Source: a virus
Direction: 5' to 3' (one strand)
Length of the DNA: 35,582 bases
Virus record (IMG/VR): IMGVR_UViG_3300009702_000010
Span: 1 to 35,582 of that record
The notes under the pieces were generated by a model. The model was not told the DNA's origin and searched no databases. It was given only the letters and a program-made list of their open reading frames with translations. Every line of letters starts with the position of its first letter. The first letter of the stretch is position 1. The translations under genes and the position numbers were made by a program. This document shows, piece by piece, positions 1 through 35,582 of this stretch.

Positions 1-123
1 AGCTACGTAACCAGCTGGCGCTGCTGGACACGATGCTTCAGGCTGCGCTGCGTGACGGCAAATATACTGACGCCCTGAAGATCCAGACGGAAGCGGCTAC
101 GATCCTAAGGCATCTAGTATCTG
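1..123. repeat. Terminal direct repeat copy 1 (identical to 35460..35582); circular-closure overlap
   Basis: Base-by-base comparison gives nt 1-123 = nt 35460-35582 (123/123). The repeat lies inside an open reading frame, so I read it as the overlap of a circular or circularly permuted genome. Unit length is 35,459 bp. Confidence 0.95.
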
Positions 124-143
124 CGCAGAAAGAGCACCCGTAG
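1..143 (+). CDS. 3' end of the junction-spanning GNAT-like CDS (continuation of 34835..35582; nt 1-123 duplicate the window end)
   Basis: The frame of 34835..35582 continues through the repeat and ends ...LVSAQKEHP with TAG at 141-143. It is absent from the ORF track because no window copy holds both start and stop. Confidence 0.7.
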   Translation, partial: LRNQLALLDTMLQAALRDGKYTDALKIQTEAATILRHLVSAQKEHP

Positions 144-468
144 GCCGATATAGTCCGAGTTTGCCCTTGACTGGGATGTGCTCCGCGATCTGCCGAGGAT
201 TCGCTAGTAGCCAGGCAAACCAACCGTCGGGAGGCTCGACGTTGGCGGCATCGGTGTCCTCCTGTGTCGCCGGACGCATATCCACTAGATCCACCACGCA
301 GACAGCTACTCCGAGCGGTCCTTCGGGGACCATTCTTGGCCATGGACGCGCGCCCGCCAAAATGATCACTGGGCCGCGATAGCGAGTCTGCCACGAGCGT
401 AGTTCGATCGTCTTTCGCGCTGTGGCGATCCGGGTCGCCCATGGTTGCCGCACTGATAGCGCTCTCAT
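97..468 (-). CDS. ASCH (PUA-like) domain protein, 123 aa
   Basis: Start placed at ATG 468 (MRALSVRQPWATRIATARKTIELRSWQTRYRGPVIIL...), which overlaps the upstream stop as ATGA (465-468). The RQPWA..I...KTIE.RSW..YRG block and C-terminal KGKLGLY fit the ASCH pattern by eye. Confidence 0.8.
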   Translation of the reverse strand: MRALSVRQPWATRIATARKTIELRSWQTRYRGPVIILAGARPWPRMVPEGPLGVAVCVVDLVDMRPATQEDTDAANVEPPDGWFAWLLANPRQIAEHIPVKGKLGLYRPTGALSAQILDALGS

Positions 469-764
469 AGCGCACCGCCTCCCCAAGCCTCGACCATGGC
501 CTGGGCGAGGCCATGCCATGACCCCGGACCAGGCATCTGGGCGCGCCATGCGGGACCTAGCCCAGCGCCGGGATGCTCGTAGCGATGAGCCATCATCTCT
601 ACCGCTGTGTCGTACAGCGGAGGATCCTCCGCCGGCTCATGTAGCGCCGCCACACCGCAAAACCCGCGAGCGAGCTCCGCTGCAACCCGAGGGAGCTCGC
701 ATCCCGAGGCCAGGAGCGCGTCTTCGACGCGCGCCACCCGATGCCGCAGCGCGTCCGTGCTCAT
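465..764 (-). CDS. hypothetical protein, 99 aa
   Basis: Start at ATG 764 (MSTDALRHRV...) overlaps the upstream stop as ATGA (761-764). No domain recognised. Confidence 0.6.
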   Translation of the reverse strand: MSTDALRHRVARVEDALLASGCELPRVAAELARGFCGVAALHEPAEDPPLYDTAVEMMAHRYEHPGAGLGPAWRAQMPGPGSWHGLAQAMVEAWGGGAL

Positions 765-997
765 CGTCTCGCCTCCGCAACGATGTGGCCGAGCTCGGGG
801 TCCGCGTCGATCCACCGCCGGATCGTCGACCAGCCGACGCCGAGGCGCCTTGCGGCGCCCCTAACATTGCCGTGCTCCGCCCGGATGGCTCGACCTACGC
901 GATTCCGCCGCTCGGGTGCCGTCGCGTAGGCCAGGCGCTGGGCCTCCTGTGATCCGCGCGCCACTAGCGGACCCTCATGACGCTGATGCGATACCAC
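761..997 (-). CDS. small DNA-binding protein with Fis-type HTH at the C-terminus
   Basis: The segment ...AIRAEHGNVRGAARRLGVGWSTIRRWI resembles the HTH_8/Fis pattern (GN..AA..LG.s..T..R). The start is uncertain: GTG 997 (first start after the upstream stop at 1005) or GTG 1054 (50-nt overlap). Confidence 0.55.
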   Translation of the reverse strand: MVSHQRHEGPLVARGSQEAQRLAYATAPERRNRVGRAIRAEHGNVRGAARRLGVGWSTIRRWIDADPELGHIVAEARR

Positions 998-1004
998 GCC
1001 CCCA

Positions 1005-1457
1005 TCAGGTGTGATCTCCGAGCACCGCGAGCGCTGCTGCGCGGAGATCTCCACTCAGGACCACACCGTTGTGTTCAGTCTCGACGATGTCGAGTCTAGT
1101 GGCGTCGCCGTATCCGTTGCCGCTGCCGTAGCCGGCTCCGTAGCCGTAGCCGTAGCCGGCTCCGAAGCCGTAGCCGTAGCCGTAGCCGTAGCCGTCGCCG
1201 CTGCCGTCGCCTTCGCCGAAGCCGTCGCCGCTGCCGTCGCCTTCGCCGGAGCCTTCGCCGCTGCCTTCGCCGGAGCCGCTGCCGCTGCCGCTGCCGCTGC
1301 CGAAGCCGCTGCTGCTGCCGGCAGCGGCATCTCGGAGCCAGCTCCGCCACTCTGCCATGGCGGCTGCGTAGGTGGAGTGATCCAGCGGGCGCCCGTGCGC
1401 CCACTGGATCGCATCGGTGCAGGCGCCGCACAGCGCCAGGAGCCATGTCAGCTCCAT
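1005..1457 (-). CDS. low-complexity protein with 34 consecutive Gly-X dipeptides, 150 aa
   Basis: ATG 1457 has GGGAGGA 6 nt upstream. Ordinary N-terminal (MELTWLLALCGACTDAIQWAHG...) and C-terminal sequences flank the repeat. Several other frames are open over the repeat (1055..1414 and 1096..1464 on minus, 1011..1835 on plus). This one is chosen for its start context and non-repeat ends. Confidence 0.7.
   Translation of the reverse strand: MELTWLLALCGACTDAIQWAHGRPLDHSTYAAAMAEWRSWLRDAAAGSSSGFGSGSGSGSGSGEGSGEGSGEGDGSGDGFGEGDGSGDGYGYGYGYGFGAGYGYGYGAGYGSGNGYGDATRLDIVETEHNGVVLSGDLRAAALAVLGDHT
1104..1307. repeat. In-frame tandem repeat tract (6-nt GTAGCC/GCTGCC-type units and a 30-nt unit) encoding (Gly-X)34
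   Basis: There are runs of gccgta and gccgct units. 1191-1218 equals 1221-1248 (28/28), giving the GEGDGSGDG(F/Y) duplication. Confidence 0.9.
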
Positions 1458-1726
1458 GGCTCATCCTCCCACGAGGCGGCGGCCTTGTCGGAGGCCTCGA
1501 ACACGCCTGTCACGTTGCGCAGGACTGCGCGCTCCACGGCAGGAGACACCCGTGATTGCGGGCCAATCGGACGCGCGGCAACGCCGAGCACACCGTGCGA
1601 TGATGCGTCCCAATATACGATCATCCGGCAATGCGTGAGGACGATGGGATCGGCTCCAGGATCCATCGTCTTGCCGACGAATACGCCACGATGGGCCGTT
1701 GTGACTACCACGTTGTGTGCCTCCAT
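1448..1726 (-). CDS. hypothetical protein, 92 aa
   Basis: ATG 1726 (MEAHNVVVTTAHRGVFVGKTMDPG...). Third codon positions are mostly G/C. The 3' end overlaps the next start by 10 nt. No domain recognised. Confidence 0.7.
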   Translation of the reverse strand: MEAHNVVVTTAHRGVFVGKTMDPGADPIVLTHCRMIVYWDASSHGVLGVAARPIGPQSRVSPAVERAVLRNVTGVFEASDKAAASWEDEPWS

Positions 1727-1736
1727 TTTGCGCTTC

Positions 1737-1804
1737 TTTCTCGCGATTTGGCTCGCGTCACTGCCTCGGAGCTCTCGCTCCGGGGCAGTAGCTCGACTCA
1801 GATC
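1737..1804 (-). repeat. Intergenic double stem-loop element, copy A
   Basis: The conserved block tttctcgcga-tttggctcgcgtcactgcc...ggcagtagctc is shared with 2044..2112. The large hairpin is 1761-1772 / 1777-1788 (12 bp, one T:G position, loop tctc). The small hairpin is cgcga(1742-1746)/tcgcg(1753-1757). Confidence 0.8.
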
Positions 1805-2033
1805 ACGCCGACACCTCCGCCTGCCGACGCTCTGAGCGCGTCGGTCCCCACGGGCCCAGCTCGACGTGTCTGCCATTGCGGTTTTCGCGACGCCGCGCGC
1901 CGCAAGCGTCGCACTCGACCTCGACGCACACACCGCCATGGGCGGCGGGGTCCTCATCGCTGTGCGGCCAGGCGACGCTGGACGTGAAACACCGGGTGGC
2001 AATATCGGTCGTAGATGTGTGTGTGCAGCTCAT
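1803..2033 (-). CDS. hypothetical small Cys-containing protein, 76 aa
   Basis: ATG 2033 is preceded by TAGGAGGCT. Third codon positions are G/C-rich. It contains a CDAC motif, also present in the next gene upstream. Confidence 0.55.
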   Translation of the reverse strand: MSCTHTSTTDIATRCFTSSVAWPHSDEDPAAHGGVCVEVECDACGARRRENRNGRHVELGPWGPTRSERRQAEVSA

Positions 2034-2043
2034 AGCCTCCTAC

Positions 2044-2112
2044 TTTCTCGCGAGATTTGGCTCGCGTCACTGCCCTGGAGCGAGAGCTCCAGGGCAGTAG
2101 CTCAAGTCAATC
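2044..2112 (-). repeat. Intergenic double stem-loop element, copy B
   Basis: The large hairpin is 2070-2081 / 2086-2097 (perfect 12 bp, loop gaga). The small hairpin is cgcgag(2049-2054)/ctcgcg(2061-2066). tctcgcgaga (2046-2055) is a perfect 10-bp palindrome. Confidence 0.8.
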
Positions 2113-2382
2113 TTCCTCGGTGGCATCGATCCATTGCTTGCGCGCTGCTCGATCTACCACGGTAAGCCGATAGCTCGACAACTCGTCAAGCCCCGCGTCG
2201 TCCACGGCGTAGTCGTGGTCCTGGAGCCACTCGCCCTCGCATGCGTCGCACATCCCGCGGTGGAGCCCGTGCTCCACCGGACCGAGATCGATCGCGAGTG
2301 TGTCGCTGTGCTCGCGGTGCCACCCGCAGAGCCTGACCCGTGCGTCCCTGTGTGCCTCTCGATATGTGATGATGCCTGCCAT
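2107..2382 (-). CDS. hypothetical protein, 91 aa
   Basis: Start placed at ATG 2382 (MAGIITYREAHR...) with GGAGG 8 nt upstream. The leader CAGGAGGCTAGAGAC is nearly identical to the one before ATG 11274. Confidence 0.65.
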   Translation of the reverse strand: MAGIITYREAHRDARVRLCGWHREHSDTLAIDLGPVEHGLHRGMCDACEGEWLQDHDYAVDDAGLDELSSYRLTVVDRAARKQWIDATEED

Positions 2383-2419
2383 GTCTCTAGCCTCCTGCCG
2401 AGCTCCCTGCCCGACACAC

Positions 2420-2448
2420 ACAGTATGCCCACCGATGGGCGTAAGCAA
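2420..2448 (-). promoter_or_regulatory. Candidate sigma70-like promoter for the 2382 gene block
   Basis: The minus strand reads TTGCTT (2448-2443), a 17-nt spacer, then TACTGT (2425-2420). It lies in the 162-bp gap after the VirE-like gene. Sequence match only. Confidence 0.3.
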
Positions 2449-2490
2449 GGGGTCAGGGGACTTTTTTTGCCCCCCGTGTCGCTTTTTCGC

Positions 2491-2508
2491 TAACTGCCCG
2501 GAATTACT
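2491..2508 (+). repeat. Fourth, more diverged copy of the 18-bp motif TAAsT-N3-CGGAAT-yAyT
   Basis: TAACTGCCCGGAATTACT matches the 11797 copy at 14/18 positions. It lies in the second-largest non-coding gap. Confidence 0.5.
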
Positions 2509-2544
2509 CGGGAACGCGCAGCGTCGCCCGCTCGATCGTCAGCA

Positions 2545-3870
2545 CTACGCCTCTGGCTCCCACAGCCTCGATCTACTGCCGCCGCTACTGCGCCGCCTAG
2601 GAGACCACCCGTTGCGCCGCAGGCACCGCGATATCCGCTGCGCGTCGCCCGGGGTCTGATGGCTGGGCTCTATCAGGAGCGCGTTGGTCGCGATCTCCGC
2701 GAGCCGTACACCCGACGGGTGGGCCTCTAGGTACTCCACGATGCGCTCGTCCCAGAGATCCCCATGCACGCGCGCCGACTGCTCAGCGACTAGCGCACCA
2801 CGCAGGGATGCGTCGGGATACCACAGGTTTCCGGCGCGGTAGAGCTCGACGGCTTCGCCCCACAGTTGGTCGCGATCGCGCCGCAGCTCATCGACGCGGA
2901 CTGTGCGCACCCGCACGGGCCACCATCGCCGGTTCTCCACGTCCAGCAGATATTCGACTTCGTTCGTCGTCGCGGCGAACACGCAGGAGCGCGGGCGTCG
3001 CACGAAATTCCTCGTGTACGGGGCGCGATAGACATCTTCGTTCCGCGTGAAAAAGGACTTGTTCCGCTCGATGTCGCTCCGCCGCGTCGCGCCGAGCTCG
3101 TCGTTCATGGCGCACCAGATCCCACCGAGTGCGTGCATCGCATCTTTGTCGCGCAGGTCCGGCAGCTCCGGCAGATACCAGGGCGAAAACAACGCCTCGA
3201 TGCCCTGGTTCTTGCCCGCGCCCTGCGCCCCCTCGAGCACAAGCACATGGTCGACCTTGCAACCGGGAGTGAGGGCGCGAGCCACTGCCGAAATGAGCCA
3301 CCACCGACCCACATTGGCCAGGTAGACACCCTGCACCGGCGTGCGCGATTCCGCGTCGAAATAGTGCTGTAGCCAGCCCTCGACGCGCGGCACTCCATCC
3401 CACTGTACCGAGCAGGCGTCGAGGTAGTCGCGTAGCGGGTGCACTGGGTTAGCGCGCGCCGCATAATCGAGGGCTGCGCGAACGGCTTCCGGTCCCCAGC
3501 TCTGCGACCATGCACGCCGCAGCCACAGGCCCGCGTAGACCAGATGCTTGTCGCAGAGCTCTCCGGCTGGCGGCGGCGGCAGCGTCGGCCAACCATCGGG
3601 CAGGCGTGGCAGCGGCGGGAACGATCGCGCCTGGATCTCGCCAGCGAACACATCGTGCTCCAGAGCACCGGACCACGCCTGGCTCTGCGTGAGGATGAGC
3701 GCCGCGTTGCCCGGATCTTTGGTTGGGATGCCATGCTCATTGCAGGCTAGCGCGCGCGACCACTCGGGCGGCGGAGCCTCGTCGTCCCGTACTACGCGCA
3801 CCGGGCCTGGGGGCGGCGCGTCGGGAGCGTCTGAATCGTCGGGCGTGTAGTCGTCGGTCGGACCGATCAC
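2545..3870 (-). CDS. VirE-like P-loop NTPase (putative replication initiator / primase-associated helicase), 441 aa
   Basis: GTG 3870 overlaps the upstream stop as GTGA. The blocks WDGVPRVEGWL, KVDHVLVLEGAQGAGKN (Walker A), WCAMNDELG (Walker B-like), RSCVFAATTN and NRRWWPVRV fit the VirE (PF05272-type) pattern by eye. Confidence 0.88.
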   Translation of the reverse strand: MIGPTDDYTPDDSDAPDAPPPGPVRVVRDDEAPPPEWSRALACNEHGIPTKDPGNAALILTQSQAWSGALEHDVFAGEIQARSFPPLPRLPDGWPTLPPPPAGELCDKHLVYAGLWLRRAWSQSWGPEAVRAALDYAARANPVHPLRDYLDACSVQWDGVPRVEGWLQHYFDAESRTPVQGVYLANVGRWWLISAVARALTPGCKVDHVLVLEGAQGAGKNQGIEALFSPWYLPELPDLRDKDAMHALGGIWCAMNDELGATRRSDIERNKSFFTRNEDVYRAPYTRNFVRRPRSCVFAATTNEVEYLLDVENRRWWPVRVRTVRVDELRRDRDQLWGEAVELYRAGNLWYPDASLRGALVAEQSARVHGDLWDERIVEYLEAHPSGVRLAEIATNALLIEPSHQTPGDAQRISRCLRRNGWSPRRRSSGGSRSRLWEPEA

Positions 3871-4151
3871 GCCTCGGCCTCGAACGCAGCGATGGGACTG
3901 TGACGTAGCGACTCGACCTGATAGCGGTCCGGCTGATACCGGAGCCCGCAGCGACGGCACTGGATCCCCCGCACCCTGTGCGGCAGGCCGGCGCACGCAG
4001 GGCACCGCGGGTCTCCTGGAGTGAGGGCGCGTGCCGCGTGGCATGCGTGGCAGACGCGACGCCGCCGGCCGTCCTGGCGCGTCAGTTGAAAATCATCTCG
4101 CGGGCCGTCATGGCCACACACCGGACAGCGGTAGGTCCTCGGGGTTTGCAT
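3867..4151 (-). CDS. zinc-ribbon protein with four CxxC pairs, 94 aa
   Basis: ATG 4151 has GGAG 6 nt upstream. The pairs are CPVC...CHAC...CPAC...CRRC. It is translationally coupled (GTGA) to the VirE-like gene. Confidence 0.65.
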   Translation of the reverse strand: MQTPRTYRCPVCGHDGPRDDFQLTRQDGRRRRVCHACHAARALTPGDPRCPACAGLPHRVRGIQCRRCGLRYQPDRYQVESLRHSPIAAFEAEA

Positions 4152-4210
4152 CGGACACTCCATTGATAGGGATCTATACGCACACACCCGCTGCGCGCGG
4201 GCGTCAACCG

Positions 4211-4489
4211 TCAGCGGGAGAGTCGCGCAAGTAGCGCAGATCGCAGGCGCGCCATGACCAGTCGCGGGAGCCCACGTCGATCCAGATCGGCAGCGGCGCC
4301 CGTCTCCAGGTCCAGCCATACCTCGGTAATCGCCTGGTCGAGTAGCTCATTGCGCACCCGGATGGGTACGCGGAGGGCGTCCAGCGCCTGGCAGATCCGG
4401 ATCCAATCAGCGGCGGGGTCGCGCACCTGTCGCCTGCCGACGCTGCGCCCTAGCCGATAGGCGGCCACGAGCTCGGGAGCAACGGTCAC
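4211..4489 (-). CDS. hypothetical protein, 92 aa
   Basis: GTG 4489 overlaps the VRR-NUC stop as GTGA (4486-4489). The remainder of track ORF 4211..4906 overlaps VRR-NUC out of frame and is discarded. Confidence 0.5.
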   Translation of the reverse strand: MTVAPELVAAYRLGRSVGRRQVRDPAADWIRICQALDALRVPIRVRNELLDQAITEVWLDLETGAAADLDRRGLPRLVMARLRSALLARLSR

Positions 4490-4845
4490 TGGCGCGCCCC
4501 CATGCGCGCTCGCGCTATGCCTGCGCGGGCGTCGTCGACGCTCCGCACGACAGCCGCGAAACCTCCGTGACTGCGCACCAGATCGAGGAACAGTTGCTGC
4601 GCAGCGCTGACGCGACCACGCGGCCGTTTGACCTCGATCGCGACGAAGCGGCCGAGCTCCCCGACCGTCAAGATGCCGATGAGATCCGAGGCTCCGGTGA
4701 CCAGCCCGTAGCGCGTCGCGGTCGTTCCACGCGGACCGGTCCGGCGCGCAACGCCCACGTTGTTCCGCCACAACACCAAGCCAGGCTCTCGGCCTAGCGC
4801 CCGGCGGATATCGGACTGGATGAGCGACTCGGACCGTGCTGTCAC
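4486..4845 (-). CDS. VRR-NUC domain nuclease, 119 aa
   Basis: GTG 4845 has GAGGGA 9 nt upstream. LWRNNVG...GASDLIGIL...FVAIEVKRPRGRVSAAQQLFLDLV..GGFAAVV fits the VRR-NUC PD-(D/E)XK pattern (D...E-V-K). Confidence 0.85.
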   Translation of the reverse strand: MTARSESLIQSDIRRALGREPGLVLWRNNVGVARRTGPRGTTATRYGLVTGASDLIGILTVGELGRFVAIEVKRPRGRVSAAQQLFLDLVRSHGGFAAVVRSVDDARAGIARARMGARQ

Positions 4846-4949
4846 GACTCGCTGTCCCTCGTCGAGCTCCGCCGCTGTTCCGCTTCGCGCTCGCGTTTAG
4901 CGGCACGGCGCAGAGCCCGCGTTGGATCGGTCAGCAGCGCGTCGGCGAT

Positions 4950-5009
4950 CTAGCAGATCCAGAACAGCACCAGCGCCGAGATGCACACGAGCATGTACAA
5001 CTCCATCAT
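4950..5009 (-). CDS. candidate 19-aa hydrophobic micro-protein (MMELYMLVCISALVLFWIC)
   Basis: ATG 5009 overlaps the helicase stop as ATGA (5006-5009). All 19 sense codons end in G or C (hand count). The product is a single transmembrane-length hydrophobic stretch. Confidence 0.35.
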   Translation of the reverse strand: MMELYMLVCISALVLFWIC

Positions 5010-6481
5010 CCACCAGCCTTTCGCAGCCATGCACGCGGCGGCCACCCGCCGAACATACCCTTGTATCTCACGCCGACAAACCCCGGCTTGAGCCCGCGCG
5101 CTTGCTGCACACCCACGAGCCGGCGGAGCTCGGCCAGGCGCTCCTGTTCGCTGCACCGGGCCATCAGCTCCAGGCCCGGCGCGACCCCGAACAGCGCGCG
5201 GTATTCTTTGATCGCAAACCAGAGCGCGAACCCTCGCTCTGCGCACACTCCGCGCAAGCGGTCCCACTCGTGAGCACGCCACTCGCCGCTTACCGCTGCC
5301 GGGTCTCCGCCGGCTGCGTCGATCGCCTCCGCTAGCTCGAGGTCCCAGATCCTTGGCCGATGCCGCTCGGGCGCGGGCCATACGTATCCGCACGCCTCGC
5401 ATGGGTTCTCTGCTCTGGGCACGCACGCGCCGCATTGCGGGCAATTTTTGAGCGACTCTCCGACGACCCGGATTGGCCTGCCGTCGAGAGCATACTCGCG
5501 ATCGGCTGTGGGTAGGCCATGGATCCACGACACGCCGGGCAGATCCACGAGCACCGCCGAGCTCTTGCCGGGAGCCGGGCGCAGCGCGCGGCCTACGATC
5601 TGGAGATACGTGCCGGCTGCCGAGCAGCCTCGCGCCAGTAGGATAGTGCTCGCCGCTGGCACGTCCACGCCTTCCGTCAGGACAAATACGTTCCACAACA
5701 CTCGCACGTTGCCGTCGCGGAATGCCGCTATCGCATCTTCGCGCCGCACATTGCCGCATTCGCCGGTGACAGCTCGACTCGGGATACCGGCCGCGGAAAA
5801 CGCTTTCGCCTGCGCCCTCGCCTCCTCGACGGATCGCGCAAACGCGAAGCAAGGCCCTGCGAGACCCGCCTCTTCGAGCTGGCGCCAGGCGTCGAGAGGT
5901 GCGCGCGCCAGGTCCGACCCTAGATACTCCGGCGGGCGAAACACTCGACATGGCACCAGGTGCCCGGCCTCGACGAGCTCGGGATAGCGTGCGCCCACGA
6001 CGAGCCGCTCAAACAGATCGCCCAGCGGACGCCCATCGCCACGCTGCGGAGTCGCAGTGAGGCCCAGCACGCGCGCGTCCGGGTAGTCCGCTAGCAGCGT
6101 GCGGTAGGTGTATGCCACGGCATGATGCGCCTCATCGTAGACGATGAGACTCGCAGCGGGTCGCTGGCCGCGGGACAGCAGTGTCTCGATCGACGCCACC
6201 TGGACCCTCGCCCAGGGGTCCGGCGCATGCTGCGGACTCACGATTGCCAGATCGGTTAGCCCCGCTTGCCGGAGCGCGCTGGCAGCCTGAGCGAGTAGCT
6301 CCCGACGATGCGCGAGCCACAGGACCCTGCCACCATTGACCAGCTCGGCGCGAGCAATGGCACAGGCCGTGCGCGTCTTACCGCCGCCGGTCGGCAGAAC
6401 TAGCAGCACGCGCCGCGACTCGCTCCATGCCGCTTGGACACTCGCGGCGGCGGCAGTCTGGTAGGGACGGAGCGGATTCAT
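5006..6481 (-). CDS. SF2 DEAD/DEAH-box helicase with C-terminal zinc ribbon, 491 aa
   Basis: Start at ATG 6481 (MNPLRPYQ...) overlaps the methyltransferase stop as ATGA. Motifs present: LPTGGGKT (I), VYDEAHH (II), LTATP (III), TEGVDVP (V), QIVGRALR (VI), and CPQCG...CEACG. Confidence 0.9.
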   Translation of the reverse strand: MNPLRPYQTAAAASVQAAWSESRRVLLVLPTGGGKTRTACAIARAELVNGGRVLWLAHRRELLAQAASALRQAGLTDLAIVSPQHAPDPWARVQVASIETLLSRGQRPAASLIVYDEAHHAVAYTYRTLLADYPDARVLGLTATPQRGDGRPLGDLFERLVVGARYPELVEAGHLVPCRVFRPPEYLGSDLARAPLDAWRQLEEAGLAGPCFAFARSVEEARAQAKAFSAAGIPSRAVTGECGNVRREDAIAAFRDGNVRVLWNVFVLTEGVDVPAASTILLARGCSAAGTYLQIVGRALRPAPGKSSAVLVDLPGVSWIHGLPTADREYALDGRPIRVVGESLKNCPQCGACVPRAENPCEACGYVWPAPERHRPRIWDLELAEAIDAAGGDPAAVSGEWRAHEWDRLRGVCAERGFALWFAIKEYRALFGVAPGLELMARCSEQERLAELRRLVGVQQARGLKPGFVGVRYKGMFGGWPPRAWLRKAGG

Positions 6482-7984: not shown

Positions 7985-8784
7985 CAGAACTCTCCCTCCG
8001 GGTCTACGCTCTCTCCCATGCCCGCCGCCCACGGAGGCAGTTCCCACTCGACCAGATCCGGCGCCATGCCGGGCCAGCGTCCCACGGTCATGCAGTCGCG
8101 GTAGGTGCGGAATGCCCGGGTCCACAGCGCGCGCCCTGCTGCCAGCATCGCCTCGCTGACCGGGCCGGCTACCACGTCGTGCGCATCACCCGACTGCACG
8201 AATACGAGCATGGGCGCCTCCGTTACGGCGAGGCCCGCCGCTATCGCTCCGTCGTGATACCATGCGAGCTGTCCCGCATAGAGGTAGCTCGCCATGTCGC
8301 GCCGCATGCCATCGACATCACTCCGCCGCGTGGATTTGAGGTCGCCGATCCGGTCCGCCATGAGCAGGTCGAGCCGCGCCTTGCACGCGATGCCGTCGAT
8401 CTCCCACTGGATGGTCCGCTCCCTGTCTGCCGCCTCGATGAGCGGCCACACAACGTGCGCACAGAGGCTCTCCGCGCACTCGATCGCCGTCTGGTAGTCG
8501 GCTGCCGGAATGACCACGCGGTCCGCGTTGTCCGCGATCCACGCCGCTCGCGCCGCCTTGGCCGCCTTGGTTCGGCCGTCGCCGAAGTCCGGTTGCGGTC
8601 GCCATTCGGCGAACCTCTCCGGCTCCAGCGCCGCGCAATGGATCGCTGTACCGAGCGAGTACGCGGGTTTTGTAGGCTCGGGATGCTGGCGGCGATGCTG
8701 GAGCAGTCTCGGGCTGGTCAATATCCATTTGAGTGTGCTCCAGTTGAGCGCTGGGATCGCTACGTATTGCTCGAACGTCATCAT
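7984..8784 (-). CDS. PD-(D/E)XK exonuclease (DUF3799/RecE-like), 266 aa
   Basis: GTAIHCAALEP...KARLDLL...IGDLKSTRR...YLYAGQLAWY fits a D...D-x-K nuclease core. It lies directly upstream of ERF, forming a recombination pair. Confidence 0.8.
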   Translation of the reverse strand: MMTFEQYVAIPALNWSTLKWILTSPRLLQHRRQHPEPTKPAYSLGTAIHCAALEPERFAEWRPQPDFGDGRTKAAKAARAAWIADNADRVVIPAADYQTAIECAESLCAHVVWPLIEAADRERTIQWEIDGIACKARLDLLMADRIGDLKSTRRSDVDGMRRDMASYLYAGQLAWYHDGAIAAGLAVTEAPMLVFVQSGDAHDVVAGPVSEAMLAAGRALWTRAFRTYRDCMTVGRWPGMAPDLVEWELPPWAAGMGESVDPEGEF

Positions 8785-9503
8785 TTCTCCTCCGTCATCA
8801 GCGCGACCGCTCGCGCCTCGATCGTACTCTTGGCAATGGCTCCAACCCGGGCGGCATCGGGGATTGCGTCCAGGTCAATCCCGTTTGGCCCACAGACGTT
8901 GCCGCTGGCCGCCCAGACCATGGCGTCACTCGCTGTGACCGTTGTAAAGAATGCGGCGTGCAGAGCCGCGTATCTCGGCCGGGAAGCGGCGTTGGCAGAC
9001 CGCGCGACGGCTCGCGCAACCCTTGGGATGATGTCTATCGCGTCGGAATGGACACCAGCATTCTGGGCTATTCGGGCGGCCAGGAACACGGCACTCCGGG
9101 CGTCGCTCACGACGCTGCCCCACTCGCTGCGGTCCGCGTGCTCTGCGGCCCAGATCAAATGCTGCAGATCAAATCCCACACACCATGTAGCCAATGCCGC
9201 ACACTCACACGCGAGACGCACGACGCGACACAGATCCAGCGAGTAGCTAGCAACGATCGTACGGCTGCGCGCTACCAGTTGGTCGGAATGTTCCTCTTTG
9301 ATCCGTGCGAGACAAACCCGATGGATCCATGTCGAACGATTTGGCGCGTAACGCAGCGCCGCTATGAGCGTACGCGATGCGTGGAGCCCGCTCTTGCAGA
9401 TTGCGATCGGACCTTCGTGCACCAGGGTTTTGCCGATCGGTGGGATCGGTCTACCGTCTCGCAGCGTCGGTCCGGTTAGATGCCAGGCGAGTGTACCCAT
9501 CAT
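8781..9503 (-). CDS. hypothetical protein, paralog A (conserved ~130-aa N-domain, Ala-rich variable C-region), 240 aa
   Basis: Start MMGTLAWHLTGP... at 9503 overlaps the upstream stop. It is 86/131 identical (hand alignment) to 10092..10694 over the N-terminal domain, and the two share the C-terminal EARAVALMTEE. Confidence 0.75.
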   Translation of the reverse strand: MMGTLAWHLTGPTLRDGRPIPPIGKTLVHEGPIAICKSGLHASRTLIAALRYAPNRSTWIHRVCLARIKEEHSDQLVARSRTIVASYSLDLCRVVRLACECAALATWCVGFDLQHLIWAAEHADRSEWGSVVSDARSAVFLAARIAQNAGVHSDAIDIIPRVARAVARSANAASRPRYAALHAAFFTTVTASDAMVWAASGNVCGPNGIDLDAIPDAARVGAIAKSTIEARAVALMTEEK

Positions 9504-9757: not shown

Positions 9758-10095
9758 CACCGCTCCTTCCGTAGGCATGTCGCAACCCACGGACTAGGCC
9801 GACAGGCTACTGCATCTCGCAGGTCCTTCAACGTCGGCGTGGGAAACGCGCTCCGGAAGTAGTCAGGGTCGATGTGGGCGTTTCTTCGCTCATCACGCAT
9901 ACTGAGCGGCCCGAACACCTCGAGTGCGCGAGATAGACACCTCGCGTTGCCGAGATTCAATGCGAGCCAATACATCCACGAGATATTCGTGCAGGCACAC
10001 CAGGCCTCACCCACGGTGCGATACCGCCGCGCGTATGCAATTAACCGGTAGCAAGCATTCATCCGTTGCAGCCAGATCGTCCAGTGCTCCTTCAT
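9757..10095 (-). CDS. hypothetical protein, 112 aa
   Basis: ATG 10095 (MKEHWTIWLQRMNACYRL...) overlaps the paralog B stop as ATGA. The upstream 211 codons of track ORF 9757..10728 overlap paralog B out of frame and are discarded. Confidence 0.6.
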   Translation of the reverse strand: MKEHWTIWLQRMNACYRLIAYARRYRTVGEAWCACTNISWMYWLALNLGNARCLSRALEVFGPLSMRDERRNAHIDPDYFRSAFPTPTLKDLRDAVACRPSPWVATCLRKER

Positions 10096-10694
10096 GAGAT
10101 CTCCTCCGTCATCAGCGCAACAGCGCGGGCCTCGACTACTGGGGGCTTGTTGGCTGCCGCTGCGGATGCCCACAGCGCTGCCCGAGCGCTTGCCCGAGCA
10201 CCTGCCCGATCGGCGGAGTTGGCAGCGGCTTTGGCGTCCCGAGCAGCCGCCAACGCCGATGCGGAGACTGCAGCCTTGATGGCACCGCCAGCGGAGACGC
10301 TGACAGCGCCCCAGTCGCCACGGTCTGCCTGCTCGGACGCCTCGATGAGCTCGGGTAGGTACAGACCCGCACACCACGCGCCCAACGCCGCGCACTCGCA
10401 GGCCAGTCGCACTACTCGCCGTAGGTCTATCGGATAGCTCGCGAGGATCGTGCGACGGCGCGCCACCAGCTTGTCGCGGTGCTCCATCTCGACGCCCTCG
10501 ACCCCGACCCGATGGATCCACGCCGCGCTTTGCGGTGCGCAGCTCAGAGCGTCGATCAGTCGCCGCGAGGCATGGAGACCACGTTGGCCGATCGCGATCG
10601 GACCTTCGTGCACCAGCGTCACTCCGATTGACGGGATGGGCGCTCCGCCCCTGAGCCTCGGGCCAGTGAGATGCCAGACGAGCGTGCTCATCAC
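10092..10694 (-). CDS. hypothetical protein, paralog B, 200 aa
   Basis: MMSTLVWHLTGPRLRGG... has the same N-domain as 8781..9503. It has the same start/stop junction architecture (G-TGA-TG versus A-TGA-TG). Confidence 0.75.
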   Translation of the reverse strand: MMSTLVWHLTGPRLRGGAPIPSIGVTLVHEGPIAIGQRGLHASRRLIDALSCAPQSAAWIHRVGVEGVEMEHRDKLVARRRTILASYPIDLRRVVRLACECAALGAWCAGLYLPELIEASEQADRGDWGAVSVSAGGAIKAAVSASALAAARDAKAAANSADRAGARASARAALWASAAAANKPPVVEARAVALMTEEIS

Positions 10695-11662: not shown

Positions 11663-11680
11663 TAAGTATGCGGAATCACT
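11663..11680 (+). repeat. 18-bp direct repeat R1 (TAAGTATGCGGAATCACT)
   Basis: One of three copies 66 and 68 bp apart in the divergent non-coding region. It matches R2 at 15/18. Confidence 0.75.
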
Positions 11681-11728
11681 AACGGCCCGCTCCGCTGGCC
11701 ACGTTGGCGCCCGCCGGTGTCCAGCGCC

Positions 11729-11746
11729 TAAGTCCGCGGAATCATT
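11729..11746 (+). repeat. 18-bp direct repeat R2 (TAAGTCCGCGGAATCATT)
   Basis: Matches R3 at 16/18. Confidence 0.75.
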
Positions 11747-11796
11747 GACTTCAGTGGACACCGCTTTTTCCTGCTGGCCGAACGCGCGGCCGGACG

Positions 11797-11814
11797 TAAC
11801 TACGCGGAATCATT
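11797..11814 (+). repeat. 18-bp direct repeat R3 (TAACTACGCGGAATCATT)
   Basis: Its 3' end plus flank reads TTGGCT. An AT-rich TATATAGTACTA follows 19-20 nt downstream. Confidence 0.75.
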
Positions 11815-12103
11815 GGCTGACCAGCGCCCATGGCCCCTATATAGTACTACGACGTGAAACAACTCTACTTATCTGGGCGTGGGCGCGCGTAGGCGTGAGA
11901 GGTCTTTTTTGGTTTCCGGTGGACGGCCCGCGGGCCGGTGACCCCATTTCTCCCGTCCTTTTGGAGCGAGATCGCGAATTGCTTAATGATCTTCACGCCG
12001 TCCATCATGTGCTTGATTTTGGGGCCTGTGGACCGCAATCTGGCCCCAGGTTGTGACAATTTGGCGTAAGGTGGGTCGTGAGTGACCCGCATACGGACCG
12101 AAA

Positions 12104-34834: not shown

Positions 34835-35582
34835 ATGGACGCCGCGAATGACATTAGCCTTGAGCGATTCGACTGCGTGGCTGGAGAGCTAGCACATTAC
34901 CAGCGGGTTCGTCGTGTGCTCCATTCCGCGCAGCACCCAGCATTTCTCGGCCCAGAGCAGATGGAGCGTTGCCTGCGCCATGATGGGCATGTGTGGCTAT
35001 ACATGCATGCTGGAGAGGACATAGCGACGCTATGGACGGAGCCGCAGAAGGGATTCCCAAACGATCAGCACGGGTTTGTGCTCTCGGTAATAAAGGCCTG
35101 GAAGGGCCGTGGAATAGCGCGACGCATCCTGGTGGAGGACGGTCCGCGCTTTGGGCGAGCGATCGACGGAGTGCTGGCCTGGTTTGCGGATTGCGGTTAC
35201 CAGATTTGCGGCGAGGGAGTCTGGAAGCACAAGCGCCACGTCGTCTATCCGGTATCCAGGGATCCTCGCGACTGGCCCGATCCAGCATCTGAAGCCGGAA
35301 AGCAGGCTGCCAAAGCGCTGGCTGCATCGCGCGAGAATTTCGCAGACGAGCGCAACGCGAAGGCCACGAAACAGCAAGCGCCGGACGCAGCTCCAGAGCC
35401 ATTCGACATGGGCGCAGCTAAACCCTTTGTGGCGCTCGAGGCCGATTCACGAGCTGCACAGCTACGTAACCAGCTGGCGCTGCTGGACACGATGCTTCAG
35501 GCTGCGCTGCGTGACGGCAAATATACTGACGCCCTGAAGATCCAGACGGAAGCGGCTACGATCCTAAGGCATCTAGTATCTG
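34835..35582 (+). CDS. GNAT-like acetyltransferase domain protein with helical C-terminal extension (5' part; continues across the circle junction to nt 143; 255 aa in total)
   Basis: ATG 34835 has GGAGG 4 nt upstream. I translated by hand to the last base of the window and found no stop. ...FVLSVIKAWKGRGIARRILVEDG...LAWFADCGYQICGEG carries the R/Q-x-x-G-x-G/A acetyl-CoA motif. Confidence 0.72.
   Translation, partial: MDAANDISLERFDCVAGELAHYQRVRRVLHSAQHPAFLGPEQMERCLRHDGHVWLYMHAGEDIATLWTEPQKGFPNDQHGFVLSVIKAWKGRGIARRILVEDGPRFGRAIDGVLAWFADCGYQICGEGVWKHKRHVVYPVSRDPRDWPDPASEAGKQAAKALAASRENFADERNAKATKQQAPDAAPEPFDMGAAKPFVALEADSRAAQLRNQLALLDTMLQAALRDGKYTDALKIQTEAATILRHLVS
35460..35582. repeat. Terminal direct repeat copy 2 (identical to 1..123)
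   Basis: See copy 1. Confidence 0.95.

What the first reader, a model, noticed from the sequence alone, without database searches (positions are those of the whole stretch)
1737..2112. Duplicated ~68-bp intergenic element with a 12-bp GC hairpin, a compensatory base-pair change and a flipped loop
Copies at 1737..1804 and 2044..2112 each follow a stop codon and precede the next RBS in the minus-strand operon. Both contain a small 5-6-bp hairpin and a 12-bp hairpin (A: ctgcctcggagc-tctc-gctccggggcag; B: ctgccctggagc-gaga-gctccagggcag). One stem pair changes from C:G to T:A between the copies, which is a compensatory change. The 4-nt loops are reverse complements of each other, so hairpin A is closer to the inverse of hairpin B while the flanks remain co-oriented. 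No U-tract follows on the transcribed strand. The options are a U-less terminator/attenuator, an RNase III-type processing site, or a palindromic protein-binding site. The element is better conserved than the coding sequences that flank it.
Basis: seen in the sequence. Interest (0 to 1): 0.65.

Follow-up and report, generated by a model that had tools for sequence, protein, structure and literature searches.

The report
Duplicated intergenic hairpin in a phage operon
An uncultured phage has two copies of a ~65-base spacer that folds into a long hairpin, one after each of two small zinc-finger-like early genes. It is most likely an RNA-level expression-control signal, but the sequence alone cannot prove its function.

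Summary
Two co-oriented copies (1736-1800 and 2043-2109, minus strand) each run from a stop codon to the next ribosome-binding site. Each carries a 12-bp GC hairpin with a 4-nt loop, a lower stem extending it to about 22-25 bp, and a small 3' hairpin. No third copy exists in the window, and no homolog was found in any collection or in Rfam.

Two results are new. First, element B separates genes g1 and g2. These genes overlap (GTGA) in the closest relative and are fused into one protein in another phage, so the element is probably a derived insertion. Second, the phage with the fused gene carries its own duplicated long hairpin of unrelated sequence but the same geometry, directly after that gene and the next one.

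The compensatory pair and the flipped loop are real. With two copies they have no statistical power, and template switching at a DNA palindrome produces exactly these changes. Copy A also has a C.A mismatch on the mRNA strand.

Best reading (about 0.4): an intercistronic RNA hairpin acting as attenuator, processing site or stability element after the promoter-proximal genes. A DNA dyad site for the g1/g2 proteins and a neutral duplicated linker remain open. Interest is modest.

The parts
2043..2109 (-). Element copy B. The repeat unit runs from the TGA stop of g1 (2107-2109) to GAGAAAG, just before the AGGAGG RBS of g2.
   Evidence: CM 85.6 bits
1736..1800 (-). Element copy A. The repeat unit starts 2 nt after the g2 stop (1803-1805) and ends at GAGAAAG, upstream of the g3 start (ATG 1726 or GTG 1711).
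   Evidence: CM 86.1 bits
2070..2097 (.). Core hairpin B: perfect 12-bp stem with a 4-nt loop (UCUC on mRNA, GAGA on + strand). RNA dG is -25.4 (minus) and -26.3 (plus).
1761..1788 (.). Core hairpin A: 12-bp stem with a C.A mismatch on the mRNA strand (T.G on + strand). The loop is GAGA on mRNA. RNA dG is -20.9 (minus) and -23.9 (plus).
2058..2109 (-). Extended interrupted stem of copy B (about 22-24 bp in all). Its base includes the g1 stop codon, and it competes with the small 3' hairpin.
   Evidence: (I17, 25-nt arms, 80% complementary)
1749..1800 (-). Extended interrupted stem of copy A (about 22-25 bp in all).
2049..2066 (-). Small 3' hairpin of copy B: CGCGAG-CCAAAT-CTCGCG (6 bp).
1742..1757 (-). 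Small 3' hairpin of copy A: CGCGA-GCCAAA-TCGCG (5 bp). A 2-nt indel relative to B shifts the register but a hairpin remains.
2107..2382 (-). g1, 91 aa. Its N-terminal 52 aa belong to a family of ~60-aa Cys/His proteins (motif LCxxH...LGPVxHGxHRGxCDACE). It is the promoter-proximal gene.
1803..2033 (-). g2, 76 aa Cys/His protein. It is 64% identical to the gene that overlaps the g1 homolog in L063, and 37% identical to the C-terminal domain of the g1-g2 fusion protein P0141.
1448..1726 (-). g3, a DUF6948 protein. It is the first gene downstream of copy A.
2420..2448 (-). Weak promoter-like site TTGCTT-17-TACTGT upstream of g1. Public contigs read TTGCGCTT here. A similar TTGCGCTT or TTGCGT lies 63-68 nt upstream of g1 homologs in L063 and L062. 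This is an inference; the site is below the consensus-scan threshold.

Best explanation
The two copies form an intercistronic cis-acting hairpin module on the mRNA of a leftward early transcription unit that starts just upstream of g1.

Proposed mechanism: after g1 and again after g2, the transcript folds into a GC-rich interrupted hairpin of about 22-25 bp, whose base abuts the stop codon. A short second hairpin and the next ribosome-binding site follow. The long hairpin has no U-tract, and six or more downstream genes have no detectable promoter of their own. It is therefore more likely a partial attenuator, an RNase III-type processing site or a 3'-exonuclease barrier than a full terminator. 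Any of these would uncouple the expression of g1, g2 and the downstream genes and grade it (g1 > g2 > rest).

The element was probably gained by insertion or duplication at gene junctions that are tightly coupled in relatives. The differences between the two copies (one compensated pair, one mismatch, an inverted loop) come from template switching at the DNA palindrome.

Shown: the anatomy, the position, the uniqueness, the derived state of the g1/g2 junction, and an analogous pair in a second phage. Inferred: that it acts as RNA, and which of the three RNA mechanisms applies.
For: 1. The repeat unit coincides exactly with the intergenic spacer, from stop codon to just before the RBS. Both copies have the same orientation relative to transcription.
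2. Both copies form very stable hairpins (core -21 to -26 kcal/mol, extended -31 to -40), well beyond shuffles.
3. Hairpins with at least 12 pairs are rare in this genome: there are three, all within 1379-2099, and 1 of 200 shuffles gives three or more.
4. The genome has no canonical intrinsic terminators above chance (11 found against 7.3 expected, and 10 against 7.8). No promoter lies inside the element, so downstream genes need read-through.
5. The closest g1/g2 relative has a GTGA overlap at this junction, and another phage has the two genes fused. Here the element uncouples the two cistrons, and g2 has its own AGGAGG RBS.
6. A second phage (L062) has a duplicated element of 92% identity, 293 nt apart. 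It has unrelated sequence but the same geometry: about 57 nt, a 4-nt loop, a base at the stop codon, and an RBS after it. It lies directly after the fused g1-g2 gene and after the next gene. There the one-sided stem change is a U.G on the mRNA strand.
7. g1-family genes are preceded by non-coding gaps with promoter-like sites, so the hairpins follow the first cistrons of a transcription unit.
8. A 2-nt indel between the copies leaves the small hairpin intact.
Against: 1. No transcript data exist, and the host is unknown.
2. Copy A has a C.A mismatch on the mRNA strand, and the antisense strand folds better (A: -40.3 against -31.4; B: -37.9 against -35.1). There is therefore no strand signal for mRNA-level selection.
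3. Covariation has no power with two copies, and template switching explains it.
4. With no U-tract, it is not a canonical terminator.
5. A palindrome is equally a dsDNA feature.
6. The closest relatives (L063, L064) have no such element, so the g1-g2 module does not require it.
7. The window and L062 elements show no demonstrable sequence homology, so the parallel could be convergence or coincidence.
Confidence: 0.4

Rival explanations
1. The palindromes are double-stranded DNA dyad sites (operators or roadblocks). A phage protein binds them, most plausibly the adjacent small Cys/His proteins g1/g2 or the HTH protein at 761-1054. Binding regulates transcription through the distal early region.
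For: Copy B has a perfect 12+4+12 palindrome, and the arms remain imperfectly complementary out to 25 nt (I17). The features are strand-symmetric, with no mRNA-strand preference. The orientation of the central 4 nt does not matter for a dyad site, which fits the flipped loop. The copies are similar within each phage but unrelated between the window and L062, as expected if the sites co-evolve with a phage-specific binding protein. The elements sit next to zinc-finger-like proteins in both phages. From established knowledge, small zinc-finger phage regulators that bind dyad sites exist (P2 Ogr), and P4 Delta is a covalent double Ogr, which parallels the g1-g2 fusion.
Against: Complementarity runs uninterrupted through the centre over 28 bp, and the arms extend to about 25 nt, which is much more than typical operators. 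The 21-nt perfectly conserved flank is asymmetric. The unit matches the stop-to-RBS spacer exactly, and its base abuts the stop codon in all four copies from the two phages. There are only two sites and no site at the promoter. DNA binding by g1/g2 is undemonstrated: Pfam, NCBIfam and PDB searches all found nothing.
Confidence: 0.2
2. The element has no function of its own. It is a linker duplicated by recombination or replication slippage when the g1/g2/g3 junctions were rearranged. Intrastrand template switching keeps the palindrome perfect as a mutational by-product.
For: There are only two copies. The element is absent from the closest relatives. No homolog exists in any collection. Every difference in the hairpin is of the kind template switching produces. 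The covariation is not significant.
Against: An analogous duplicated hairpin occupies the same context in an independent phage. The copies differ in 16% of columns of the gap-free 56-nt core, and by a 2-nt indel just 3' of it, yet both hairpins persist in both copies. The phage genome is otherwise tightly packed, with mostly overlapping genes. Strong hairpins cluster non-randomly.
Confidence: 0.2
3. The hairpin RNA is the recognition site of the g1/g2 proteins encoded just upstream. The system would be N/nut-like processive antitermination or Mu Com-like translational activation.
For: There are two similar copies per phage, and they differ between phages. They lie directly downstream of promoter-proximal small Cys/His proteins in both phages. 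From established knowledge, lambda nutL/nutR and the Mu Com zinc finger binding the mom mRNA hairpin are precedents.
Against: The loop is reverse-complemented between the two copies (GAGA against UCUC on the mRNA), which would destroy loop-specific recognition. No boxA-like motif was seen. L063 and L064 carry g1-like genes without any hairpin. Nothing shows that g1/g2 bind RNA.
Confidence: 0.1
4. The element is a miniature mobile palindromic element (REP, MITE or attC-like cassette boundary) that inserted at the two junctions.
For: The element is a derived insertion at a formerly overlapping junction. The unit has sharp boundaries and brings a stop codon at its 5' end.
Against: No copies with shared flanks were found in 185,579 species genomes: the 42 hits were single, unrelated hairpins. 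IMG/VR gave none, and JGI metagenomes gave 4 chance hits. The sequence shows no target-site duplication, no terminal inverted repeats beyond the hairpin, and no GTTRRRY core. None of the roughly 30 window ORFs scanned against Pfam matched a transposase, RAYT or integrase, apart from one sub-threshold HTH_Tnp_ISL3-type helix-turn-helix hit on ORF 761-1054 (not exhaustive).
Confidence: 0.05

Closest known systems
ESAS/SAS (extended start-associated sequences) of Cluster K mycobacteriophages and Cluster EF Microbacterium phages (PMC3203893, PMC7302621)
   Same: These are phage-specific imperfect inverted repeats with a short spacer (4-13 bp). They lie in intergenic gaps immediately upstream of the RBS, all in one orientation relative to transcription. 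They occur in high-GC phages, are absent from host genomes, and have no known function. The L062 relative also has a conserved RBS motif, (A/G)AGGA(A/C)CCACC, three times, which resembles the EF SAS consensus GGGAAAGGACCCC.
   Different: ESAS arms are 17 bp, the elements are tied to a conserved 13-bp SAS, and there are 10-20 copies per genome. Here there are only two copies and the complementarity is much longer (12 perfect bp, about 25 in total). There is no SAS consensus: only AGGAGGCTA is shared by the g1 and g2 RBS regions. There is no sequence similarity to ESAS.
PeSL (promoter-early stem-loop) cassettes of T4-type phages (PMC2839356, PMC4122927)
   Same: PeSLs are repeated intergenic cassettes that run from the upstream stop codon to the downstream Shine-Dalgarno sequence and start codon. 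They contain a stable stem-loop that attenuates transcription, lie in plastic early regions beside small genes, and are found between the halves of a split gene (g43A/g43B). As direct repeats they can recombine.
   Different: A PeSL is defined by a strong sigma70 promoter, and none is present here. PeSLs are AT-rich and number about 50 per genome. Here the element is GC-rich and there are two copies.
RNase III processing sites of phage T7/T3 early and late mRNAs (established knowledge: Dunn and Studier)
   Same: These are intercistronic, mutually similar irregular hairpins of about two helical turns in polycistronic phage mRNA. They lack a terminator U-tract. After cleavage they leave a protective 3' hairpin on the upstream cistron.
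   Different: T7 sites have a characteristic internal loop at the cleavage site, and there are about ten per genome. Cleavage cannot be tested here, and the host and its RNase III are unknown.
REP/BIME intercistronic palindromes and other mRNA-stabilising hairpins (e.g. malE-malF; established knowledge)
   Same: These are GC-rich imperfect palindromes without a U-tract between co-transcribed genes. They act as 3'-exonuclease barriers and give discoordinate operon expression.
   Different: REPs are host-chromosomal families with hundreds of copies and an associated RAYT transposase. No host family was found here.
Lambda nutL/nutR (boxA-boxB) with the N protein; Mu Com with the mom mRNA hairpin (established knowledge)
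   Same: These are two-copy, phage-specific hairpin signals placed next to the first small gene of an early operon. In the Mu case, a ~60-aa zinc-finger protein acts on an RNA hairpin just downstream of its own gene.
   Different: boxB is a 5-bp stem with a specific loop. Here the stems are 12-25 bp and the loop is inverted between the copies. There is no boxA, and no evidence that g1/g2 bind RNA.

Membership tests
Intrinsic (Rho-independent) terminator | GC-rich hairpin | tested here: met
   12-bp stems with RNA dG of -21 to -26 kcal/mol.
Intrinsic (Rho-independent) terminator | U-tract directly 3' of the stem on the transcribed strand | tested here: not met
   The consensus scan found none in 900-2700. 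The 3' sequence is GUGACGCGAGCCAAAUC.
PeSL cassette | Sigma70-type promoter inside the element | tested here: not met
   No promoter-like site was found in 900-2700. The best manual candidate, GTGACG-17-GAAAGT, matches 7 of 12 positions in copy B only.
PeSL cassette | Stem-loop within a unit that spans the upstream stop codon to the downstream SD/start | tested here: met
   definition.
PeSL cassette | Many copies flanking ORFans in hyperplastic regions | tested here: not met
   There are two copies only. The flanked gene g2 has a homolog in L063.
ESAS/SAS | Imperfect inverted repeat with a short spacer immediately upstream of the RBS, in one orientation | tested here: met
   (I17); definition.
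ESAS/SAS | Linked conserved 13-bp start-associated sequence (GGGATAGGAGCCC or GGGAAAGGACCCC type) | tested here: not met
   The two copies share nothing after GAGAAAG. Only AGGAGGCTA is shared by the g1 and g2 RBS regions.
ESAS/SAS | Ten or more copies spread over the genome | tested here: not met
   There are two copies; the CM search with filters off found no other.
T7-type RNase III site | Intercistronic irregular hairpin of about 20 bp or more | tested here: met
   20 modelled pairs, and 22-25 pairs in MFE folds.
T7-type RNase III site | Cleavage by host RNase III | not testable with these tools
   This needs in vitro cleavage or end mapping, and the host is unknown.
REP/BIME or MITE | Multi-copy family in host or other genomes | tested here: not met
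   The genome-contig scan with the hairpin pattern gave 42 single, unrelated hairpins with no shared flanks. The viral and metagenome scans gave none or chance hits.
Integron attC | R''/R' core sites (RYYYAAC / GTTRRRY) flanking the imperfect palindrome | tested here: not met
   There is no GTT in either strand of either copy (read directly).
Lambda-type nut site | boxA motif plus a short boxB hairpin with a conserved loop | tested here: not met
   The loop is reverse-complemented between the copies, and the stem is 12 bp rather than 5. There is no Rfam match.
Any Rfam family | Covariance-model match | tested here: not met
   An E-value search of 1-6000 on both strands gave only a chance miRNA hit elsewhere.

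The most novel reading that the evidence does not exclude
The long hairpins would be the cognate targets, as RNA or as DNA, of the small Cys/His proteins g1/g2 encoded immediately upstream. This would be a phage-specific regulator/site pair that evolves in concert within a phage and diverges between phages. It would be comparable to N/nut or Com/mom, but would use an undescribed ~60-aa Cys/His protein family and hairpins of about 25 bp placed at the stop codons of the first cistrons of an early operon.
Probability: 0.1. Interest if true: 0.7.

Novelty: new variant of a known kind. Interest (0 to 1): 0.38.

Why it matters
If the hairpins work as proposed, they are one more example of how compact phage operons break translational and transcriptional coupling to set different expression levels for neighbouring early genes. 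The example would come from a high-GC, uncultured lineage in which canonical terminators are absent.

The link to a previously undescribed family of ~60-aa Cys/His proteins gives a concrete pair to test. In that family the genes are found split, overlapping or fused in different phages, and an analogous hairpin pair follows the family in a second phage.

The case is also a caution for method. A single compensatory pair plus a flipped tetraloop between two paralogous hairpins is not evidence of RNA-level selection, because template switching produces both.

Tried and rejected
1. Homologs of the element. I ran exact and degenerate DNA scans of IMG/VR, JGI metagenomes and GTDB genomes. I also ran BLAST against phages and plasmids, Rfam, and a covariance model over the window and 14 related loci. 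Only chance hits or unrelated single hairpins came back.
2. Conservation at the homologous position. Relatives found through VapE (64-49% aa identity) and through DUF6948 have no such element.
3. g1 and g2 as diverged tandem paralogs, which would have made the element 'more conserved than its genes'. This is rejected: BLASTP E = 0.08-0.25 and hhalign probability 2%.
4. g2 as an ORFan moron. The word-indexed search found only the query itself, but this is rejected after a 64%-identical homolog was found in L063.
5. A degenerate third copy inside g1 or upstream of it. Smith-Waterman scores are at the shuffle level.
6. A promoter or a canonical terminator in the element. None was found.
7. Stop-codon read-through or translational bypass fusing g1 to g2. 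The read-through frame has a non-coding GC pattern. The first nine residues of g2 are conserved in L063, so g2 uses its own start.
8. An origin-iteron reading. ACTGCCC/GGGCAGT occurs once more near the VapE stop, which is too few copies to support it.
9. An RNA switch that sequesters the RBS. The RBS regions are mostly unpaired in the ensemble.
10. GGAGC-N4-GCTCC as a third functional site at 2262-2275. It encodes the conserved protein motif PVEHGLH, so coding constraint plus chance probably explains it.

Full report
**What the window is**

The window is a complete phage genome of about 35.46 kb. It is terminally redundant or circular: bases 1-123 equal 35460-35582. GC content is 64.5%.

A leftward (minus-strand) early and replication operon runs from about 11.5 kb down to 1 and beyond. 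It encodes a DEAD/ResIII helicase, a VRR-NUC nuclease, a VapE-like helicase, DUF6948, an HTH protein and an ASCH protein. A rightward structural operon encodes the large terminase and a P22-like portal.

The same genome is in ENA (ERZ27249683, 35,464 nt), and part of it is in a Logan assembly of another sample. These differ from the window by a few substitutions and one 2-nt indel, and none of the differences lies in the element. There is no cultured relative: the best TerL match is about 35% aa identity. The host is unknown.

**Checking the observation**

On the transcribed minus strand the order is as follows:
- VapE-like gene (stop at 2545), then a 163-nt gap.
- g1 (2382..2107, 91 aa), then element B.
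- g2 (2033..1803, 76 aa), then element A.
- g3 (DUF6948, 1726..1448), then g4.

The repeat unit runs from TGA (the g1 stop in copy B) to GAGAAAG, just before the next RBS. Copy B is 2109..2043 and copy A is 1800..1736. The gap-free 56-nt core is identical in 47 of 56 columns.

Each copy has three structural parts:
- A 12-bp GC stem with a 4-nt loop.
- A lower interrupted stem that brings the hairpin to 22-25 bp and reaches the stop codon.
- A 5-6-bp hairpin just 3' of it, which competes with the lower stem.

These parts are seen (I17).

The copies are far beyond chance. The 21-mer flank occurs twice against 0.01 expected, and the hairpin pattern twice against 0.03 expected. Fold z-scores are -4 to -5. 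There is no U-tract and no promoter. A covariance model built from the two copies and run with filters off finds no further copy in the window.

**What the differences between the copies mean**

Of 20 modelled pairs, 17 are invariant. One changes on both sides (C-G to U-A), one changes on one side (C-G to U.G), and one is broken: C.A in copy A on the mRNA strand, which is T.G on the other strand. The loops are reverse complements.

With two sequences the test has no power: 256 of 500 shuffles reach the observed covariation. The antisense strand folds somewhat better than the mRNA strand (A: -40.3 against -31.4; B: -37.9 against -35.1). There is therefore no strand signal for selection on the mRNA.

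A compensatory change plus an inverted 4-nt loop is what intrastrand template switching at a DNA hairpin produces (PMC8794818; PMC8604942). These features show that the palindrome is real and mutationally self-maintaining. They do not show that an RNA structure is under selection.

**Search for homologs**

No homolog of the element exists in the following:
- IMG/VR (with the hits read).
- JGI metagenome contigs.
- 185,579 species genomes, where the hairpin-only pattern gave 42 single unrelated hairpins.
- Phage or plasmid records.
- Rfam.

The element is therefore neither a host REP-like family nor a known RNA family. Relatives found through VapE (64-49% identity) and through DUF6948 lack it.

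**Gene context, the most informative result**

g1's first 52 residues belong to a family of ~60-aa Cys/His proteins with the motif V(V/I)TYRxAY..LCxxH...LGPVxHGxHRGxCDACE.

The word-indexed protein search returned only g2 itself, so g2 first looked like an ORFan. It is not:
- In contig L063 the closest g1 homolog (69% identity) is followed by a 76-aa protein that is 64% identical to g2 (E = 1e-31). The two genes overlap by four bases (GTGA).
- In contig L062 a single 132-aa protein (P0141) has a g1-like N-terminal half and a g2-like C-terminal half (37% identity over 52 aa, E = 2e-8).

Element B therefore sits in a junction that is translationally coupled or fused elsewhere. It is most simply read as a derived insertion that uncoupled the two cistrons, with g2 now having its own AGGAGG RBS.

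The g1-like genes are preceded by non-coding gaps containing promoter-like sites, so they are promoter-proximal:
- Public contig of this phage: TTGCGCTT...TACTGT.
- L063: TTGCGCTT.
- L062: TTGCGT-18-TATACA.

**An analogous pair in a second phage**

In L062, the fused gene and the 67-aa gene after it are each followed by a copy of another duplicated element. The copies lie at 4402-4477 and 4695-4769, are 92% identical, and are 293 nt apart.

Its sequence is not demonstrably related to the window element, but its geometry is the same:
- It starts at the stop codon.
- It forms an interrupted hairpin of about 57 nt with a 4-nt loop (27-nt arms; -37 to -38 kcal/mol on the mRNA strand).
- A short tail containing a small palindrome follows, and then the RBS.

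The model built from the window copies gives its two best L062 hits exactly there, aligned over all 56 positions (13.7 and 12.4 bits). There, the one-sided stem difference is a U.G on the mRNA strand.

Two other g1 contexts (L063, L064) have no element. The element type is therefore recurrent but dispensable.

**Other internal context**

The window has only three hairpins with at least 12 pairs, all within 1379-2099, and 1 of 200 shuffles gives three or more. The genome shows no canonical terminators above chance. The only good sigma70-like promoters are in the divergent region near 11.5-11.85 kb. The six or more genes downstream of the elements therefore depend on read-through.

**Interpretation**

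The best-supported reading (about 0.4) is an intercistronic RNA hairpin module after the first cistrons of an early transcription unit. It would act as a partial attenuator, an RNase III-type processing site or a 3'-exonuclease barrier that grades expression. It would have been acquired by insertion or duplication at formerly coupled junctions.

The rivals are:
- A dsDNA dyad site for the adjacent Cys/His proteins (0.2).
- A neutral duplicated linker kept palindromic by template switching (0.2).
- An N/nut-like or Com-like RNA target of g1/g2 (0.1).
- A miniature mobile element (0.05).

The closest known systems are ESAS/SAS of actinobacteriophages (function unknown), PeSL cassettes of T4-type phages, and T7 RNase III sites. 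The element fails a defining feature of each family that could be tested:
- No SAS, and only two copies (ESAS/SAS).
- No promoter (PeSL).
- No U-tract (intrinsic terminator).
- No host copies (REP).
- No attC core (integron cassette).

It is therefore a new variant of the known kind 'phage intergenic regulatory hairpin repeat', not a member of a named family.

**Verdict**

The feature is real and non-random, and of modest interest (0.38). What is worth following up is the association with the g1/g2 Cys/His gene pair and the parallel pair in a second phage.

Noticed in passing
window 1379-1410: A third strong hairpin, unrelated in sequence: GATCCAGCGGGCGC-CCGT-GCGCCCACTGGATC. It has 14 pairs, one of them a G.U on the mRNA strand, and an RNA dG of -28.9. 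It lies inside the N-terminal coding region of g4. Together with the two elements it accounts for every hairpin of at least 12 bp in the genome.
   Followed up: partly
window 2258-2279: An 8-bp hairpin, GGTGGAGC-CCGT-GCTCCACC, lies inside g1. It shares the apical GGAGC-N4-GCTCC with the elements: this motif occurs only 3 times in the window against 0.16 expected. It also shares its loop with the 1379-1410 hairpin. It encodes the conserved g1-family motif PVEHGLH, so coding constraint plus chance probably explains it.
   Followed up: partly
window 1803-2382; L063 238-671; L062 4001-4399: g1 and g2 form a conserved pair of small Cys/His proteins. They are separate here, overlap by GTGA in L063, and are fused in P0141. 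The g1 family has about 20 representative clusters and no hit in Pfam, NCBIfam or PDB.
   Followed up: partly
window 1005-1457: g4 encodes a 150-aa protein with a long Gly-rich repeat (GSG/GEG/GDG, then GYG). At the DNA level this is a repeat of 12- and 18-nt period (D1, 13 copies).
   Followed up: no
window 11663-11818: Three 22-nt direct repeats (TAAGTNNGCGGAATCAYTRRCK) are spaced 66-68 nt apart in the divergent region between the two operons. They lie next to the best sigma70-like promoters: minus-strand TTGACA-16-TATGCT at 11530-11503 and plus-strand CTGACC-17-TATAGT at 11817-11845. They are probably operators or tandem promoters.
   Followed up: no
window 8778-8821 and 10092-10135: A 44-nt repeat of 84% identity lies at two minus-strand gene junctions. 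On the minus strand its 3' half reads ...CTGATGACGGAGGAGA..., which looks like RBS-type sequence (GGAGGAG) from the repeat alone. This is a second duplicated gene-junction sequence in the early operon.
   Followed up: no
window 761-1054 (minus): A 97-aa ORF has an HTH signature (HTH_Tnp_ISL3/HTH_23 type, and a weak match to the small-terminase phrog_4044) and a coding-like GC3 of 0.77. The public contig's gene calls do not include it and leave a 240-nt 'gap' there.
   Followed up: partly
L003 2897-3130; L006 1637-1910; L007 9332-9715: In the VapE relatives, the non-coding gap downstream of VapE holds phage-specific short repeats in both orientations (GTGCAC-type, GGGACACTG and GGGATC(CC) respectively). 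These repeats sit around a CT-rich tract (TCTCTCTCTAT-like). The arrangement looks like a replication origin with iterons. The window's equivalent gap lacks this pattern.
   Followed up: no
L062 3989, 4480, 4803: A conserved RBS-region motif, (A/G)A(A/G)GA(A/C)C(C/A)ACC(G)ATG, precedes three consecutive genes. It resembles the start-associated sequence of Microbacterium cluster EF phages (GGGAAAGGACCCC).
   Followed up: no
window 2444 and six other positions (5414, 4952, 3549, 2728, 2287, 1833) plus 35065: The window differs from both public assemblies by G/C-to-A/T substitutions only. It also has a 2-nt deletion that turns TTGCGCTT into TTGCTT in the putative -35 region upstream of g1.
   Followed up: no
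window 1-123 and 35460-35582: An exact 123-nt terminal direct repeat shows that the contig is a circularly closed or terminally redundant genome of 35,459 bp.
   Followed up: no
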